A stretch of DNA of 62,268 nucleotides, filler included. It is 7 parts of 7 records of this genome, joined end to end, with 100 filler letters (N's around TTAATTAATTAA, not from the genome) between each part and the next. Parts side by side here need not be neighbours in the genome. Positions count along the whole stretch, not along the records: positions 1 to 5,492 come from SRR31156797_27785; 6 more parts are not named here. One strand, 5' to 3'. The translations under genes were made by a program, and so were the position numbers. Within the stretch, counting starts at the first letter, position 1; every line of letters starts with the position of its first letter. Positions 1 through 53,995 of the stretch are shown here, piece after piece. The notes under the pieces are model-generated. The model did not search any database. It worked only from the letters and a program-made list of their open reading frames with translations, and had not been told where the DNA came from.

Positions 1-507
1 TGTCCTTTATAAGGGGGGGGGGTAGTCCAAGATTATTGCAAACCATTAGGCCTTCTCCGTAATATTACACAGTTCTTATTCTGAATAACATGTAGCTACT
101 ATATGATATCCAGAAGGCTTTCGTTACCCACAACCAAACTTTCTTTCGATACACCCTGACCACAAAAATTGCAAGGAGACCTCCTCCCAAAAACGTATTT
201 ACAACTTTTCACATTCGACACCCCCTCCATAAACCCCTAACATCATTGATGTTTTTTCACGAAAGGAGATTTCCATGTCACAATCTTTAATTTTTATGAT
301 CTCAGCCAGTTATATATCGGTTACTAAAAGCAACCTTTTAATACGCGTCATTTCAATCCAGTATTTTTGCGAGGTTCGACAAGAAACTGAATCATCCAGT
401 TATATAAGATTGTCGATCCATAATCATCCTCAAACTAGGATGATGCCATCTCAAAATAAAGTCTGATCCTTTAAAGAGTATCTTCCCTATCTATGGCTGG
501 GGTGAAA

Positions 508-676
508 TGCGTACATTTTGCGTACATTGAATGATAAGTCGTTGTTTTTATTAATCGTGCGACACTCTTCGTAATAAGCAAGCCAGCGGTTCGACTCGGC
601 TCATCGACTCCGCTCCCCTAAAGACATGCATTATAGCCTTTGTTATCCCCATTGGTACAAAAATGAGGTACACAAA
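508..676 (+). mobile_element. att-like junction of an integrative element: degenerate 3' half of tRNA-Thr(CGU) (568-612) flanked by arm-type direct repeats and an IHF-like site
   Basis: 568-612 reads TTCGTAA-TAAGC-AAGCC-AGCGG-TTCGACT-CGGCT-CATCGAC-T-CCG, in register with anticodon loop (CGT), variable loop, T-arm and acceptor 3' strand; no 5' half. TGCGTACATT x2 at 508/519, GGTACA(A/C)AAA x2 at 654/667, and TAAGTCGTTGTTT (535-547) is one mismatch from the IHF consensus. Confidence 0.7.
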
Positions 677-694
677 AACAAAGGATTCCACACA

Positions 695-916
695 TTGGCC
701 CCAGCGCCCCATCCCATCCTGAGACCTTCGGGTTATTATTTTCGTTTTGTTGTTCCGGTAAATTTGCGTTCGGCGTTCTCCAAGCGTGAACTCAAGTTTT
801 CCCTCAAAGTTACTTTTGGAATCTATGTCAAGCGAGGGGCCGCAAGGGAACTGTACGATAAACTGGTGAAGCTTCAGCTCCTGAAGAGTTCTAAGCGGGT
901 TCGGCCTGGGCCATGA
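695..916 (+). pseudogene. Truncated tyrosine-integrase N-terminus (DUF6538-like arm-binding domain) fused to an unrelated tail
   Basis: TTG start after AAGGA. The peptide APHPILRPSGYYFRFVVPVNLRSAFSKRELKFSLK fits the YxFRxxVPxxL...ELxxSL pattern. It stops after 73 aa with no catalytic domain and lies beside the att-like site. Confidence 0.65.
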
Positions 917-1042: not shown

Positions 1043-1351
1043 ATGCTTGCAAATTATTACAAAGCTACAGTTCCCAAAAAAAATTTAGGCCAAGCAATTC
1101 CACAAATGTGTAAAGTTCAAATTCATTTTATGGAAAATGTTGATGGATGCCTTAAATTTCAATTTAGCCAGGATCTGGAAGACCAATCCATAATATATTT
1201 ATTTGTTATCTGGAAGAATAGAGAACTATATGAGGCGAATCTTAATTCAGAATACCAAGAAACGGAAATATTTAAAGATTTTATGAAACATAAAGCAGCA
1301 ATAGTTTCGGCAGAACAATTTACCATTTCAGAAAGTATAAATGTTGCCTGA
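1043..1351 (+). CDS. Small AT-rich protein, possibly ABM (antibiotic biosynthesis monooxygenase)-like fold
   Basis: Strong RBS AAGGAG; 102 aa; GCLKFQFSQDLEDQSIIYLFVIW resembles the ABM GCxxFxxxxDxxDxxxxxxxExW pattern. Confidence 0.5.
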   Translation: MLANYYKATVPKKNLGQAIPQMCKVQIHFMENVDGCLKFQFSQDLEDQSIIYLFVIWKNRELYEANLNSEYQETEIFKDFMKHKAAIVSAEQFTISESINVA

Positions 1352-1635: not shown

Positions 1636-3078
1636 ATGATCGAATATCCAGATGATCCCATATTCCAGAGGGCGTACGCCCTTGCGATCACAAAGCCTGT
1701 CTGTCGACTGCAGCCCCATCGGGAAACATCTCCATTTTATGGGATCGATCACTTTTCGCTTTTTGTAAATACGATCGAATTCTGCCTTCATTCACTTGCC
1801 CTGGGCAGCCTTGACAGTGAGTTGCAGCGGGAAGACCTGAAGAATAAGGTTTTCAGCCTTATCAATTTTCAGTTTGAGGCACTTAAAAATATAAATCCGA
1901 AAACAAAAATCCCAGGGCCGGGTGAAATCGATAAGTATTCCAACGAATTTATCGATACGCTTTTGAATGTAAAAGAAGGCAAGGAATTTACCGATCGTAT
2001 TTACTCGGGTTCAGACAATCAATTTTATGAAATCCGGTTCCGGCTGTTATACGAACTGGATGCATTTGACGGCTCATTCACCATTCAACCCTCGGTGGAA
2101 TGTATCAATTTGTATCTGCAGGCGCTTTCCCAGCCCCTGATTGACAAAACCATTGCAACACAGGCCATTCTTGAACACCAGATTAAATCAGGAAAGCTGA
2201 CCCAGGCCATTCAGACAGCCGAAGAGCATTATAAAGTAACACTTCAGCAAAAACAGCACCTGATGGAACTCAAGACGAACATCAGCATCAACCTTAAAAG
2301 TGTTCATTGGACCCGGGACATTATACCCCAGGTTGAAGAGGCCGAAGAAAACCTGGCCCTGTTTCTGGATTCTGATAAGCGCATCATTTTTCATATCGAA
2401 AATGATCCCAACCTTGAAGAAGACAGTGTCGAACTGCTGACCTCCATCCGCACAAAGGTCATGGCCTGCGCCAACACGTACAGCCAGCTGCTGACCGAAA
2501 TTACCACCATGGGCTCCCATCTCAGGAAAGCCCAGGATGATCAGGCGTTTATCGATTCGACCCGGTATGAACATCTCCCGAACATTGTCGGAGACATTAT
2601 CCTTCCGATAATGGGCGTTCCTGAAAATTTGATTTCCACGTTGAACGAGAAAATTTACCCGGCAATTATTCCGCCTTCCATATCCTATGTGGATGACCTG
2701 TCCTTCATCGTAAACCGTGCGCTGGTTGAAAGAACCGCGGAGGAAAATGGCGTCCCCGACCAGGACGAATTCCAGGAATTCCTGCGGGAGGAGGAACCGC
2801 TTGTTTCGGAACGGCATCTGTCCGAAATCCTGTCTGTGCTGGATCGTATTTGCGTAACCGAGGAAAGCATACGTCTTTCGAATTTACTTGATCATCTTGT
2901 TGATGAAAGTTATTCCCAAAAAGCGGCCGCCGTCCTGCTTGCACATTTCATATTCCAGGCTCCCGGGAACTACCACGGATTCATCGCACGGAAAACAGAT
3001 ACGACATTTAAATTTGAAAACTTTTCATGCGATGATGTCCTATTGATCCGGTCAACAACAAAAGAGGAAGCGTTATGA
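1636..3078 (+). CDS. Putative kleisin-like subunit (JetA/MksF-like) of a divergent SMC system
   Basis: 480 aa, helical; first gene of a coupled trio ending in an SMC-like ATPase; ATGA overlap with the next gene. Confidence 0.6.
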   Translation: MIEYPDDPIFQRAYALAITKPVCRLQPHRETSPFYGIDHFSLFVNTIEFCLHSLALGSLDSELQREDLKNKVFSLINFQFEALKNINPKTKIPGPGEIDKYSNEFIDTLLNVKEGKEFTDRIYSGSDNQFYEIRFRLLYELDAFDGSFTIQPSVECINLYLQALSQPLIDKTIATQAILEHQIKSGKLTQAIQTAEEHYKVTLQQKQHLMELKTNISINLKSVHWTRDIIPQVEEAEENLALFLDSDKRIIFHIENDPNLEEDSVELLTSIRTKVMACANTYSQLLTEITTMGSHLRKAQDDQAFIDSTRYEHLPNIVGDIILPIMGVPENLISTLNEKIYPAIIPPSISYVDDLSFIVNRALVERTAEENGVPDQDEFQEFLREEEPLVSERHLSEILSVLDRICVTEESIRLSNLLDHLVDESYSQKAAAVLLAHFIFQAPGNYHGFIARKTDTTFKFENFSCDDVLLIRSTTKEEAL

Positions 3079-3788
3079 GTGTTATTGAGGATGCATCATA
3101 CCTTATTACATGCGGTCTTAAACCAAAGCTTGTACCCAATAAGAATCCAAGATACCGCGAGCTTCTGGAACGGTATAATCTGGATGCGGACTTTCAGGGG
3201 GTGGTGGATGAGATTACGGCGGGTCAGGGACTGGTAATTCTTGATTCCTCACGGCTTTTGGTGCTGGGGCTGAAGGACAGGAACAGCCCGTTTGCCCCAA
3301 CGATCCGTGATGTTTTCGGTAATGTCAAACCTGAAGAGCGGATGATGATCGGCATGTCCATTCTTGCCCTGGCAGCCTTTTGCTATCCAACACCCGAAAG
3401 CCTTGATAACCCCCAGGTGATTTATCCTTCATGCTACAATATCCGGGAAAGAATGCGCGAGCTCGTTGAAATGGCCTCCAAGATCGAAACAGACGAGGAA
3501 GTGCCCGGTCTCAGGCAGGTATGGGAAATCATCAAATCCAACGAGCCGATTCAGCGGAAAAACGAGAAGCACATAAGGGGCTCCCTTGCCTGGGCGGTCA
3601 AACAAGCTTTTTCGTTTCTTGAATCACGAAATTTCATTTCCCAGACAAGTGATGAGCAGGAGGGGACATTCGCCACCCGGGAAAAATTCCGGGTCCATGT
3701 TAAAAACATGATGCTCCATCGTTCCTTCCAGGTGGTGCAGGAACTGACCGCCATGGTGCCTTCAAATAAAACAGCCGAGGAGCTTTAA
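3075..3788 (+). CDS. Putative KITE/winged-helix subunit (JetB/MksE-like)
   Basis: 237 aa between the kleisin-like and SMC-like genes; wHTH-like C-terminus (VKQAFSFLESRNFI...GTFATREKFR); TAATG overlap with the next gene. Confidence 0.6.
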   Translation: MSVIEDASYLITCGLKPKLVPNKNPRYRELLERYNLDADFQGVVDEITAGQGLVILDSSRLLVLGLKDRNSPFAPTIRDVFGNVKPEERMMIGMSILALAAFCYPTPESLDNPQVIYPSCYNIRERMRELVEMASKIETDEEVPGLRQVWEIIKSNEPIQRKNEKHIRGSLAWAVKQAFSFLESRNFISQTSDEQEGTFATREKFRVHVKNMMLHRSFQVVQELTAMVPSNKTAEEL

Positions 3789-5492
3789 TGCCATATCTAC
3801 TGAATACATGGTTTTCAAGGGCAGGACATCCGGCTGCACGCTTTTATGATCTGCAGGTTGAATGCTGCAGCCCGGACAATGCGTCGGAGTATACAGACAC
3901 CATTGTCATGGCGGAAAACGGGGTCGGAAAGAGTTCCATCATTCAGCTCATGATTTCGGTTTTCATTCCAAACAAACGCATGATTACCGGCGGAAAAGGG
4001 TTTGATGACGTTCGCGCCCTGGATTCATACTTTAAAACCGGGGAAGTGGCCTGGGTTGTCCTTGAATTCACGGTCGACGACAAACAGGAAGTTTTCTTTG
4101 ACGATAAGCCCACCCGTATTGTCGGGTACATGGCATACAAATCCACGGCCCGGGACGATGCCGGTAATTTTGAATTGAAAAGGCATTTCTTCAGTTTTAA
4201 AACCGGCTCCGGCTTGTCCGTTGATGATATCCCGATGATGGAAAAAATATCATATAATGAGGCGTGTGATTGGGCCAATGGTATTTTAAAGCAGCATCCC
4301 AAGTCAGAACCCTTCAGCCACAAGCGCCAGTCCCAATGGACAAATTTCCTGAAAGATATCAATATTCATCCGGAGCTTATGAAAATGCAGCTTATGATGA
4401 ATAAAAAAGAGTCCAATGCCGATGAAATCTTGAAATTGTCAAATATCAATGAATTCGTCGACCTTGTGCTGACGCCGCTGATCGATCCCGAAAAAACGAG
4501 CTCCCTTCCTGAAACCATCGAAACACACCGCAATGAGCTTGCCAATATTCCGAACCTCCGGAAAGAGCTGGCGTTTCTGACTAAATTGTCCCAGCAGGTT
4601 TCCTTGCTCCAGGAGCCGGGCAGGAATTTAAAGCGTCTTGAAAAAGAGGTTCGCGGGTCAGAAAAAAAAAGGGAGCGGATCGCCGATAAAATATCCAACA
4701 CAGTATCCCACCTGGAAGAAAAGTCCCTGCAAATTAAATCAGATACCCGCACCGCAAAAAATGCAGTAAATACCGCAACAGATGAAATCAAAGGGATAGA
4801 GGCCTCCCTTCTCTGGTTTAAAATGAGGAAACTTCAAATCCTGAAAGAGATTGCCCGGGCAGGCGAAGCCTCGGCAATTAAAATCCTGGAACAGGCCGAA
4901 CATAAGCTCAAACTGCTTGAAGCCGCTTTTTGCCTGGGGGAACTGTTAACGGTCAAAGCCAAAATCCGTTCCATTGATGAGGCGATCGCCAAAGCCGATC
5001 TGCCTGCCAGAACAACGCTTAAGCAACTCCACGGTGTTGGGGCAGCTCTTTATAAGTTATGCGACGAAAGGATCCAGGCGATCAACAGGGAACGGTCTGA
5101 GACTCAAGACAAACTGACACTATTCCGGAAGGAAAAAGAGGCCCTGGTTCGCAAGGAATCCGGTCTGAATAGAGACATGGATCATAACCGGGAAACCATT
5201 TTGAAAATGGAAGAATGGTTGGCAAAGGCCACGCACGAATTCAACCTTCTTGTGGAAACAGGACGGATACTGCCCCAGGAGAATTTTGAAGAAGCCAAAG
5301 AACGGTGTGTCAGTGAAATATCGGACACGAAAAAATCGATTGAAGACAAGACCCGTTCCATGGTGCAATTGGATGAAAAGATAGCAGCTCTTATCAAGGC
5401 GAAATCTGAAAACAAGGTTAAAAAGGAACATTGTAAAAATCAAATTGAGAAAATCAAGGAAGAGATTAAACGTTACAGGGAAAGCCTTGAAA
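3788..5492 (+). CDS. SMC-like ATPase (JetC/MksB-like), 3' truncated by contig end
   Basis: N-terminal Walker A variant AENGVGKSS, Q-loop-like MKMQLMMNKKE, then more than 300 aa of heptad-rich coiled coil; open to the linker. Confidence 0.8.
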
Positions 5493-5592
5493 NNNNNNNN
5501 NNNNNNNNNNNNNNNNNNNNNNNNNNNNNNNNNNNNTTAATTAATTAANNNNNNNNNNNNNNNNNNNNNNNNNNNNNNNNNNNNNNNNNNNN
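5493..5592. other. Artificial contig linker
   Basis: N44-TTAATTAATTAA-N44 (stops in all six frames); composition changes across it. Confidence 0.98.
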
Positions 5593-13786: not shown

Positions 13787-13886
13787 NNNNNNNNNNNNNN
13801 NNNNNNNNNNNNNNNNNNNNNNNNNNNNNNTTAATTAATTAANNNNNNNNNNNNNNNNNNNNNNNNNNNNNNNNNNNNNNNNNNNN
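13787..13886. other. Artificial contig linker
   Basis: N44-TTAATTAATTAA-N44. Confidence 0.98.
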
Positions 13887-27260: not shown

Positions 27261-27360
27261 NNNNNNNNNNNNNNNNNNNNNNNNNNNNNNNNNNNNNNNN
27301 NNNNTTAATTAATTAANNNNNNNNNNNNNNNNNNNNNNNNNNNNNNNNNNNNNNNNNNNN
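27261..27360. other. Artificial contig linker
   Basis: N44-TTAATTAATTAA-N44. Confidence 0.98.
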
Positions 27361-33503: not shown

Positions 33504-33603
33504 NNNNNNNNNNNNNNNNNNNNNNNNNNNNNNNNNNNNNNNNNNNNTTAATTAATTAANNNNNNNNNNNNNNNNNNNNNNNNNNNNNNNNNNNNNNNNN
33601 NNN
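33504..33603. other. Artificial contig linker
   Basis: N44-TTAATTAATTAA-N44. Confidence 0.98.
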
Positions 33604-45735: not shown

Positions 45736-45835
45736 NNNNNNNNNNNNNNNNNNNNNNNNNNNNNNNNNNNNNNNNNNNNTTAATTAATTAANNNNNNNNN
45801 NNNNNNNNNNNNNNNNNNNNNNNNNNNNNNNNNNN
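45736..45835. other. Artificial contig linker
   Basis: N44-TTAATTAATTAA-N44. Confidence 0.98.
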
Positions 45836-53895: not shown

Positions 53896-53995
53896 NNNNN
53901 NNNNNNNNNNNNNNNNNNNNNNNNNNNNNNNNNNNNNNNTTAATTAATTAANNNNNNNNNNNNNNNNNNNNNNNNNNNNNNNNNNNNNNNNNNNN
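53896..53995. other. Artificial contig linker
   Basis: N44-TTAATTAATTAA-N44. Confidence 0.98.

What the first reader, a model, noticed from the sequence alone, without database searches (positions are those of the whole stretch)
1636..5492. Divergent three-gene condensin (Wadjet/MksFEB-like) operon at the edge of an integrative element
Seen: three translationally coupled genes (ATGA and TAATG overlaps) of 480 aa, 237 aa and more than 568 aa. The last has an atypical Walker A (AENGVGKSS, Ala in place of the first Gly), a Q-loop-like segment and a long coiled coil. Known: the order kleisin-KITE-SMC and these sizes define MukFEB/MksFEB/JetABC, and Wadjet adds a Toprim nuclease, JetD, to cut plasmids. 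Inference: the motifs (GHPAARF, GLKPKLVP...YRELL.RY, ALAAFCYP.P..L) do not look like housekeeping Smc-ScpAB or MukBEF. They recall, from memory only, an uncharacterised trio annotated as hypothetical in Actinobacteria. Its position about 1 kb from an att relic suggests a mobile defence system, perhaps an unclassified Wadjet subtype. No jetD is visible upstream and the downstream side is lost.
Basis: partly seen in the sequence, partly recalled or inferred. Interest (0 to 1): 0.8.

Follow-up and report, generated by a model that had tools for sequence, protein, structure and literature searches.

The report
Truncated type III Wadjet anti-plasmid operon
These three genes are the front part of a known kind of bacterial anti-plasmid system (Wadjet type III), cut off where a short assembly contig ends, so the finding is ordinary apart from belonging to a little-studied branch.

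Summary
The three coupled genes exist as described: 1636-3078 (480 aa), 3075-3788 (237 aa), and 3788 onward (568 aa readable). The third gene stops only because its contig ends at 5492. The window is seven contigs joined by N44-TTAATTAATTAA-N44 linkers.

PADLOC places ORF1 in JetA3 (E 5e-38, full length) and ORF3 in JetC3 (E 1e-42, first third of the profile). ORF2 hits JetB3 only weakly (E 2e-3). However, its family links to JetB3 profiles, and a confident model (pLDDT 92.6) matches JetB/MukE best.

Full-length orthologues of ORF3 (78-81% identity, 1470-1476 aa) are complete JetC3. The nearest complete relatives (30-40% identity) have JetA-JetB-JetC-JetD3.

So this is the 5' part of a divergent type III Wadjet operon, not an unclassified subtype. 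Whether jetD follows cannot be seen here. More distant high-GC relatives carry the same trio without jetD in 5 of 5 loci. The "att relic" and "island edge" are not confirmed.

Side observation: all 12 full-length JetC3-like proteins examined read LDNP where the Walker B Asp-Glu is expected.

The parts
1636..3078 (+). jetA (type III kleisin), 480 aa, complete
   Evidence: PADLOC JetA3 PDLC00567: E 5.4e-38, residues 5-476 against profile 9-485/504. It is 34.6% identical over 477 aa to the JetA of the complete JetABCD3 locus L001, and 85-91% identical to P0002/P0001. The AF2 model is moderate (pLDDT 68.4) and shows N-terminal WHD, helical bundle, low-confidence linker and C-terminal WHD. The four Foldseek matches with E<=0.001 are chains of MukBEF entries and of the Wadjet-II JetABC entry.
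3075..3788 (+). jetB (KITE subunit; DUF6063/JetB3-like), 237 aa, complete; its start overlaps the jetA stop (ATGA)
   Evidence: Direct PADLOC JetB3 hits are weak, E 2.3e-3 and 3.1e-2. The exhaustive search found 304 representative relatives at E<=1e-3. Of 102 aligned relatives, 20/17/7/4/1 hit five JetB3 profiles and 14 hit Pfam DUF6063. AF2 pLDDT 92.6. All ten best Foldseek chains come from MukE/MukEF/MukBEF/JetABC entries. VIA best is 8dk1_E: Z 8.8, rmsd 4.6, 171 aligned. It is 40% identical to L001 JetB.
3788..5492 (+). jetC (type III SMC-like ATPase), N-terminal 568 aa only: N-terminal head half and first part of the coiled coil; cut by the contig end; its start overlaps the jetB stop (TAATG)
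   Evidence: PADLOC JetC3 PDLC00588: E 1.2e-42, residues 38-564 against profile 54-573/1484. The fragment is 81% and 78% identical to the N-termini of P0153 (1470 aa) and P0154 (1476 aa). Both match JetC3 end to end, at E 4e-106 and 8e-112.
3911..3937 (+). Walker A of JetC (A42-ENGVGKS-S50)
   Evidence: N44, G45, G47, K48 and S49 are invariant in 15 of 15 aligned JetC3-type N-termini. The first position is Ala or Leu and never Gly.
5493..5592 (.). artificial contig-join linker (N44, TTAATTAATTAA, N44); not biology
   Evidence: The same linker occurs six times in the window and splits it into seven pieces with GC 0.41-0.61.
626..916 (+). context: truncated integrase N-terminal fragment (DUF6538 only, no catalytic domain)
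   Evidence: Pfam PF20172: E 1.2e-7, profile positions 1-33/60. The ORF ends at 916.
1043..1351 (+). context: small ABM-domain protein, 102 aa
   Evidence: Pfam PF03992: E 4.2e-7, 30.5 bits against a cutoff of 23.1.

Best explanation
Window 1636-5492 is the 5' part of a type III Wadjet (JetABCD) operon. It holds jetA (kleisin), jetB (KITE) and the first 568 codons of an approximately 1470-codon jetC (SMC-like ATPase). The three genes are translationally coupled. The operon is cut by the end of a short assembly contig. The remainder of jetC lies outside the window, and most likely a jetD Toprim nuclease gene does too.

Shown here:
- family membership of JetA and JetC by profile;
- a KITE-like fold for JetB;
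- collinearity with complete JetABCD3 loci.

Inferred from published work on types I and II:
- JetA bridges the JetC heads and dimerises the complex, and JetB dimers sit on JetA.
- The complex loads on DNA and extrudes loops using ATP.
- On a small circular DNA, extrusion runs to completion and stalls. JetD then cleaves the DNA, so plasmids are restricted while the chromosome is spared.

The locus belongs to a divergent low-GC branch of type III. Its closest named relative is annotated only as 'hypothetical' in Desulforapulum autotrophicum HRM2.
For: - Profile hits: PADLOC JetA3 E 5.4e-38 (full length) and JetC3 E 1.2e-42.
- Full-length JetC orthologues P0153 and P0154 (81% and 78% identity) match JetC3 over 38-1421 of 1470/1476 aa.
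- Their C-terminal heads carry an SGGE signature and a Walker-B-like LILDNP.
- JetB: 304 relatives, family links to JetB3 profiles, a pLDDT 92.6 model, and best structural matches to JetB/MukE.
- Complete loci L001 and L003 are A(484/496 aa)-B(242/240)-C(1470/1466)-D(359). Their fourth gene hits JetD3 PDLC00594 at E about 4e-58 and Pfam JetD_C.
- The window ORFs align collinearly to L001 A/B/C at 35/40/30% identity.
- In D. autotrophicum HRM2 the three orthologues carry consecutive accessions ACN17964/63/62. I read that as adjacency; it is an inference.
- The contig end is shown.
- Mechanism and classification come from passages read in 10.1101/2025.03.10.642339 and PMC10586767.
Against: - jetD is not visible. 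The rest of jetC and jetD are not on any other piece of the window (tblastn).
- No whole genome is held, and two genome-contig scans found nothing.
- The direct JetB3 hit is weak (E 2e-3). No Pfam or NCBIfam model reaches its cutoff for any of the three ORFs.
- The JetA model is only moderate (pLDDT 68.4). In VIA-align its MukF matches (Z 11.3-12.8, rmsd about 11) tie with unrelated helical bundles such as CorA (Z 11-12.3).
- More distant relatives with the same trio lack jetD nearby in 5 of 5 loci.
- The mechanism has been shown only for types I and II. Type III is described as 'largely uncharacterized'.
- The JetC3 family lacks the canonical Walker B Glu, so its ATPase cycle may differ.
Confidence: 0.8

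Rival explanations
1. A nuclease-less JetABC/MksBEF-like trio. The operon ends after jetC, and the complex organises or silences DNA (chromosome or plasmids) by loop extrusion without cleavage. This has been proposed for MksBEF of Pseudomonas aeruginosa and for MksB of mycobacteria.
For: - In the high-GC relatives L012, L015, L019, L023 and L025, JetA3 (E 2.7e-188) and JetC3 (E 0) lie in a conserved order: MFS transporter, GntR, JetA, JetB, JetC.
- What follows JetC there is a membrane protein with a NIT histidine kinase, or a GMC oxidoreductase with an amino-acid permease.
- No JetD match was found in 5 of 5 of these loci, which have 1.8-5.4 kb beyond jetC.
- Loss of JetD giving MksBEF is discussed in PMC10586767. 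A mycobacterial MksB operon with MksEF is described in PMC11329512.
- The window itself cannot show jetD.
Against: - The window's proteins are closer to the JetD-bearing low-GC clade. Identities are JetB 36-40% against 27-31%, JetA 33-34% against 12-22%, and JetC 29% against 19%.
- In that clade 3 of 3 loci that reach past jetC have jetD3. L003 and L004 are near-identical, so this is about two independent cases.
- The JetD search in the high-GC loci was limited. It used tblastn with two closely related queries and family scans of selected ORFs only.
Confidence: 0.15
2. A new Wadjet subtype in which JetABC3-like sensors are coupled to an effector other than JetD.
For: - All three proteins are missed by Pfam and NCBIfam.
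- There is no PDB sequence relative.
- The JetB3 hit is weak.
- The downstream gene is unseen.
Against: - JetA3 and JetC3 profile hits are strong.
- The nearest complete loci carry an ordinary JetD3.
- No alternative effector gene was seen next to any relative examined.
Confidence: 0.04
3. A different SMC-like system (Lamassu LmuB, Rad50/SbcC, RecN, or housekeeping Smc-ScpAB) that only resembles Wadjet.
For: Weak hits only: LmuB E 0.013-0.7, Rad50 NF002572 E 0.0075, and SMC_prok_A E 0.13.
Against: - These scores are far below family cutoffs (14.6 bits against 1087; 9.9 against 729).
- The JetC3 hits are 30-40 orders of magnitude better.
- The two upstream partners are a JetA3 kleisin and a KITE protein, which Lamassu and Rad50/SbcC systems lack. 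That last point is from my own knowledge.
Confidence: 0.01

Closest known systems
Wadjet type III (JetABCD-III), as defined by Doron et al. 2018 (recalled; not readable here) and modelled in PADLOC-DB v2 (JetA3/JetB3/JetC3/JetD3)
   Same: - Gene order A-B-C, and sizes of 480 aa, 237 aa and about 1470 aa (the last from orthologues).
- Profile hits to JetA3 and JetC3.
- JetD3 follows jetC in the nearest complete loci.
   Different: - It is a divergent branch. JetA scores 129 bits, against 625 bits for a high-GC member.
- JetB barely reaches the JetB3 profiles.
- jetD is unseen because the contig ends.
Wadjet type I JetABCD (E. coli GF4-3, P. aeruginosa PA14; PDB 8dk1, 8as8, 8q72) and MksBEFG of Corynebacterium glutamicum
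   Same: - Kleisin-KITE-SMC architecture.
- The best structural match of the JetB model is 8dk1_E (Z 8.8).
- The mechanism assumed here, total loop extrusion of small circles followed by Toprim cleavage, was established on these systems (abstracts and passages).
   Different: - No detectable sequence similarity: phmmer against PDB sequences found nothing for JetA, for the JetC fragment, or for a full-length orthologue.
- The JetC1 PADLOC hit is only E 5e-4.
- The Walker B reads D-N rather than D-E in the type III sequences examined.
Wadjet type II (Neobacillus vireti JetABC, PDB 9qe0)
   Same: - The SMC-kleisin-KITE core.
- 9qe0_E is among the four Foldseek matches of the JetA model with E<=0.001.
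- 9qe0_D aligns to the JetB model at Z 6.3.
   Different: Type II has a tandem KITE subunit (abstract). Here JetB is a single 237-aa KITE.
MukBEF / MksBEF (nuclease-less condensins)
   Same: - MukF-like and MukE-like folds for ORF1 and ORF2.
- The three-gene order.
   Different: - No sequence-level match to MukB/E/F or MksB/E/F models in Pfam or NCBIfam.
- The nearest complete relatives carry a nuclease gene.

Membership tests
Wadjet type III (JetABCD-III) | JetA3-type kleisin encoded first | tested here: met
   PDLC00567: E 5.4e-38, covering 5-476 of 480 aa. The model shows WHD-bundle-linker-WHD. The Foldseek top matches are chains of MukBEF/MukEF and Wadjet-II entries, including MukF(1-287) 1t98.
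Wadjet type III (JetABCD-III) | JetB3 profile match for the second gene | tested here: inconclusive
   Direct hits are E 2.3e-3 (PDLC00573) and 3.1e-2 (PDLC00571). Of 102 family members, 20/17/7/4/1 hit five JetB3 profiles at E<=1e-3; the same member may hit more than one profile. The JetB of the complete JetABCD3 locus L001 scores equally weakly, E 1.4e-3.
Wadjet type III (JetABCD-III) | KITE (tandem winged-helix) fold of the second gene product | tested here: met
   AF2 pLDDT 92.6. The ten best Foldseek chains are all from MukE/MukEF/MukBEF/JetABC entries, with best E 3.2e-3 and none at E<=1e-3. VIA gives 8dk1_E at Z 8.8 with 171 aligned, and MukE 7v8p at Z 7.8 with 168 aligned. Only the KITE proteins align over the full length.
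Wadjet type III (JetABCD-III) | JetC3-type SMC-like ATPase: N-terminal head half and coiled coil | tested here: met
   PDLC00588: E 1.2e-42 over profile 54-573/1484. The Walker A core N-G-x-G-K-S is invariant.
Wadjet type III (JetABCD-III) | JetC hinge and C-terminal head half (signature motif, Walker B) | not testable with these tools
   They lie beyond the contig end at 5492. They are present in the 78-81% identical orthologues P0153 and P0154.
Wadjet type III (JetABCD-III) | JetD (Toprim nuclease) gene in the operon | not testable with these tools
   The contig ends inside jetC, and no JetD lies elsewhere in the window. No genome is held. JetD3 follows jetC in 3 of 3 low-GC loci that reach that far, and in 0 of 5 high-GC loci.
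Wadjet type III (JetABCD-III) | Restriction of plasmid establishment | not testable with these tools
   This needs an experiment.
MukBEF/MksBEF (nuclease-less condensin) | Trio without an associated nuclease gene | not testable with these tools
   The downstream sequence is missing.
Smc-ScpAB | Match to the SMC equivalog model at its cutoff | tested here: not met
   TIGR02169: 9.9 bits against a cutoff of 729.4, E 0.13, on the N-terminal 568 aa only.
Rad50/SbcC | Match to the Rad50 model at its cutoff | tested here: not met
   NF002572: 14.6 bits against a cutoff of 1087, on the fragment only. The full-length orthologues match JetC3 end to end.

The most novel reading that the evidence does not exclude
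Type III Wadjet motors, this one included by inference from its 78-81% identical orthologues, may run a non-canonical ATPase site.
- All 12 full-length JetC3-like proteins examined read L-D-N-P where SMC/ABC ATPases have the Walker B Asp-Glu.
- None of the 15 aligned N-termini has the first Walker A glycine.
- The segment where a Q-loop would be expected has an invariant Asn and Glu instead of Gln.

If the catalytic base really sits elsewhere, type III would differ mechanistically from every characterised SMC complex. In high-GC Actinobacteria the same trio appears to have shed JetD and settled behind a GntR regulator.
Probability: 0.3. Interest if true: 0.55.

Novelty: new member of a known kind. 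Interest (0 to 1): 0.2.

Why it matters
In itself it matters little. It adds one truncated member to Wadjet type III, a recognised anti-plasmid system.

Three modest points of value:
- This Desulfobacteraceae-like branch is missed by Pfam and NCBIfam and is annotated 'hypothetical' in D. autotrophicum HRM2. The annotation could be corrected.
- Pfam DUF6063 appears to be the JetB3/KITE family.
- Type III remains biochemically uncharacterised. The family-wide D-N Walker B and the JetD-less actinobacterial trio are concrete features that a structural or biochemical study of type III could address.

Tried and rejected
Searches that gave nothing:
- The window's own genome is not held.
- Genome-contig scans with JetA and with alignment A1 found no relative.
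- A viral-contig scan with the JetB alignment found none.
- The plasmid collection gave no match by DNA or by JetA protein.
- A word-based search with the JetA profile A4 added nothing beyond P0001 and P0002.
- PDB sequence searches with JetA, the JetC fragment, full-length P0154 and a profile of JetC3 C-terminal heads gave no meaningful relative. The Walker B reading therefore rests on motif order and spacing, not on alignment to a solved head.
- tblastn of L001/L003 JetC and JetD against the whole window found no C-terminal jetC or jetD on the other six pieces.
- A search of the records behind L012-L025 for the JetD3 profile was not possible, because those records are not held.

Readings considered and dropped:
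- VIA-align on the JetA model does not separate MukF from CorA-type helical bundles, so I do not lean on it.
- The att site or island boundary: no tRNA, no Rfam hit and no meaningful repeats.
- Promoter and terminator scans were at chance level.
- The minus-strand ORF 1353-1691 overlaps the jetA start and has no family hit. I regard it as spurious.
- In the high-GC loci the plus-strand 'ORFs' just after jetC were wrong-frame translations. The likely gene there is a minus-strand membrane protein with no Pfam hit.

Papers: Doron 2018 (PMC6387622) and Deep 2022 (PMC9637719) are not held. What I say of them is recalled or taken from papers that cite them. Supplementary files were not consulted.
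Full report
**What is in the sequence**

The window holds three same-strand ORFs:
- 1636-3078, 480 aa;
- 3075-3788, 237 aa;
- one starting at 3788.

The first pair overlaps by ATGA and the second by TAATG. Purine-rich Shine-Dalgarno-like stretches lie in front of the second and third starts, read directly from the same calls.

The third ORF is readable for 568 codons up to 5492. From 5493 the sequence is 44 N, TTAATTAATTAA, then 44 N. This six-frame-stop linker occurs six times in the window, against none in 100 shuffles. It splits the window into seven pieces with GC 0.444, 0.613, 0.414, 0.582, 0.584, 0.449 and 0.538.

The window is therefore a chain of separate assembly contigs. The finding sits on a 5.5-kb piece. 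The gene is 'lost' downstream because the contig ends there. The GC step at about 5.5 kb is a join, not an island border.

**Family assignment**

Pfam and NCBIfam give nothing above cutoff for any of the three proteins. The best Pfam hints are DUF6063 for ORF2 (E 0.033) and AAA_29 for ORF3 (E 0.062).

PADLOC-DB is clear for two of the three:
- ORF1 matches JetA3 (PDLC00567) at E 5.4e-38 over residues 5-476.
- ORF3 matches JetC3 (PDLC00588) at E 1.2e-42, covering profile positions 54-573 of 1484. That is the N-terminal head half and the first coiled-coil arm.
- ORF2 reaches JetB3 only at E 2.3e-3.
- Hits to other SMC-like families are negligible: LmuB E 0.013, Rad50 14.6 bits against a cutoff of 1087, and SMC 9.9 bits against 729.

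**ORF2 is a KITE protein of the JetB3/DUF6063 family**

- An exhaustive HMMER search found 304 representative relatives at E<=1e-3, of which 91 are at E<=1e-10.
- I aligned 102 of the listed full-length relatives (A2).
- Of those 102, 20, 17, 7, 4 and 1 hit five JetB3 profiles. A member may hit more than one profile. Fourteen hit Pfam DUF6063.
- The language-model atlas also places ORF2 next to clusters partly labelled DUF6063. A MukE/MksE cluster appears at a lower score of 0.86.
- AlphaFold2 on A2 gave pLDDT 92.6 and pTM 0.88.
- Foldseek found no match at E<=1e-3. Its ten best chains all come from MukE, MukEF, MukBEF or JetABC entries, with best E 3.2e-3. Nse1/Nse3 and ScpB follow further down.
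- In VIA-align the best chain is 8dk1_E, from the P. aeruginosa JetABC head construct: Z 8.8, rmsd 4.6 Å, 171 residues aligned. MukE chains follow at Z 7.2-7.8. Single winged-helix regulators align to only one half of the model.
- These Z values are moderate. The argument is that only KITE proteins cover the whole model.

**ORF1 as a kleisin**

The model was built on 19 sequences (A4). It is only moderate, with pLDDT 68.4. It shows an N-terminal winged-helix region, a long helical bundle, a low-confidence linker at about 303-388, and a C-terminal winged-helix region.

Foldseek gives four matches with E<=1e-3. Three are chains of MukBEF entries and one is from the Wadjet-II JetABC entry 9qe0. 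MukE-MukF entries and MukF(1-287) follow.

VIA-align does not discriminate. The MukF-containing chains score Z 11.3-12.8 at rmsd about 11 Å, and they tie with CorA-type helical bundles. For ORF1 the profile hit is the stronger evidence.

**Relatives and what lies downstream**

The word-based search found only two close JetA relatives:
- P0001, 91% identical;
- P0002, 85% identical, a 'hypothetical protein' of Desulforapulum autotrophicum.

A 'longer' search with the JetC fragment found two full-length proteins:
- P0153, 1470 aa, 81% identical;
- P0154, 1476 aa, 78% identical, from D. autotrophicum HRM2.

Both match JetC3 end to end, at E 4e-106 and 8e-112. The window's jetC is therefore a truncated read-out of an approximately 1470-codon gene.

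In HRM2 the three orthologues have consecutive accessions: ACN17964.1, ACN17963.1 and ACN17962.1. I take that to mean the genes are adjacent. The next gene could not be retrieved.

A metagenome scan with a four-sequence JetB alignment returned 33 loci. They fall into two groups.

The six closest loci (L001-L006) have GC 0.36-0.41 and JetB identity of 36-40%.
- Three of them reach past jetC: L001, L003 and L004.
- These three show A (484/496 aa), B (242/240), C (1470/1466) and a fourth gene of 359 aa.
- In L001 and L003 the fourth gene hits JetD3 (PDLC00594) at E about 4e-58, and Pfam JetD_C above its cutoff.
- L004's fourth gene is identical to L003's. The three loci therefore amount to about two independent cases.
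- The window's ORFs align collinearly to L001 A/B/C at 34.6%, 40.0% and 29.9% identity.
- No other piece of the window holds the rest of jetC or a jetD.

The remaining 27 loci have GC 0.65-0.76.
- Five of them have 1.8-5.4 kb beyond jetC: L012, L015, L019, L023 and L025.
- L012's JetA and JetC hit the type III profiles at E 2.7e-188 and E 0.
- Genes there were picked by third-position GC. The order is an MFS transporter on the opposite strand, then a GntR/FCD regulator, JetA, JetB and JetC.
- After JetC comes either a convergent membrane protein and a NIT-domain histidine kinase, or a GMC oxidoreductase and an amino-acid permease.
- No JetD match appeared in any of the five by tblastn at E<=10, nor in the ORFs I scanned.
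- That test is limited. The tblastn used two closely related queries, and not every ORF was scanned.
- These loci are the more distant clade. Identity to the window's proteins is JetA 12-22% and JetC about 19%.

**Motifs**

- *Walker A.* The window's JetC reads A42-E-N-G-V-G-K-S49. In 15 of 15 aligned N-termini the core N-G-x-G-K-S is invariant, and the first position is Ala or Leu, never Gly.
- *Q-loop region.* Where a Q-loop might be expected, the conserved segment is M-N-x-x-E-x-x-A, with no conserved Gln.
- *Walker B.* In the C-terminal heads of 12 of 12 full-length relatives, an SGG[E/Q] signature is followed about 35 residues later by L-D-N-P. The twelve are P0153-P0156, L001, L003, L012, L015, L019, L023, L025 and L032. 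By order and spacing this is the Walker B, with Asn where SMC/ABC ATPases have the catalytic Glu.
- I could not anchor that reading on a solved structure, because neither phmmer nor a profile of these heads finds any SMC head in the PDB sequences. My searches for 'JetC', 'Walker B' and 'Wadjet-III' returned no paper holding all three terms (listing only).

**Surroundings**

Upstream of jetA lie:
- a 283-nt AT-rich spacer;
- a 102-aa ABM-domain ORF at 1043-1351;
- a 96-aa ORF at 626-916 whose only match is the first 33 positions of DUF6538 (E 1.2e-7).

From my own knowledge, DUF6538 is an N-terminal module of some tyrosine integrases. No catalytic domain follows it here, so this is a truncated integrase remnant.

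There is no tRNA and no Rfam family. There are no repeats beyond short chance-like pairs, and promoter or terminator matches do not exceed shuffles. An 'att relic' and an 'integrative element edge' cannot be established from 1.6 kb of flank on a contig whose other end is missing.

**How it most likely works**

By membership, JetA is the kleisin, JetB the KITE dimer and JetC the SMC-like ATPase.

For types I and II the published model is as follows. A dimer of JetABC motors loads on DNA and extrudes loops. On a small circular DNA it extrudes the whole circle and stalls. The JetD Toprim nuclease then cleaves the DNA. All four subunits are needed to suppress plasmid transformation (passages read in PMC10586767, and in 10.1101/2025.03.10.642339).

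The same preprint says types II and III 'remain largely uncharacterized', and it extends the principle to type III only 'by extension'. Wadjet-III is also reported to lack a hinge channel (PMC12647877). For this locus the mechanism is therefore inferred. Only the parts list is shown.

**Verdict**

- It is not an unclassified subtype. It is a divergent, truncated member of type III.
- Whether jetD follows is open. I put it at roughly 0.75-0.8, given the nearest complete relatives.
- Novelty: new member of a known kind.
- Interest: low.
- The only parts worth a specialist's second look are family-wide: the D-N Walker B, the JetD-less actinobacterial trio behind a GntR regulator, and the equation of Pfam DUF6063 with JetB3.

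Noticed in passing
window 5493-5592, 13787-13886, 27261-27360, 33504-33603, 45736-45835, 53896-53995: The window is a pseudo-molecule. Seven contigs are joined by N44-TTAATTAATTAA-N44 linkers, and piece GC ranges from 0.41 to 0.61. Any feature that spans or abuts these joins is an artefact, including GC shifts and ORFs that run into the linker. The wide GC spread may mean a mixed bin.
   Followed up: partly
P0153-P0156; L001:2610-7022, L003:7584-11984, L012:10848-15482, L015:10865-15568, L019:6225-10940, L023:10874-15325, L025:10847-15466, L032:5815-10260: All 12 full-length JetC3-like proteins read L-D-N-P about 35 residues after the SGG[E/Q] signature. That puts Asn at the position of the Walker B catalytic Glu. 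It could not be anchored on a solved structure.
   Followed up: partly
L012, L015, L019, L023, L025 (high-GC metagenome loci): A conserved cluster: MFS transporter on the opposite strand, then a GntR/FCD regulator, JetA3, a JetB-like gene and JetC3. No JetD was detected in 5 of 5 loci, which have 1.8-5.4 kb beyond jetC. The downstream genes look like housekeeping genes. This may be a domesticated, nuclease-less type III trio.
   Followed up: partly
window 3075-3788 and alignment A2: Pfam DUF6063 ('unknown function') is hit by 14 of 102 members of the ORF2 family. Many members of the same family also hit JetB3 profiles, and ORF2 folds like JetB/MukE. DUF6063 is probably the type III Wadjet KITE subunit.
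   Followed up: partly
window 626-916: A truncated integrase N-terminus: only the first 33 positions of DUF6538 match, and there is no catalytic domain.
   Followed up: partly
window 11-22: A run of 12 G lies close to the start of the window. It may be a sequencing or assembly end artefact.
   Followed up: no
window 1636 (jetA start); P0002 compared with P0157: RefSeq gives the HRM2 JetA orthologue as 439 aa, starting at the Met that aligns to residue 44 here. GenBank gives 482 aa. Homology to the JetA3 profile and to L001 JetA extends to residues 1-5 of the long form, which favours the long start.
   Followed up: partly
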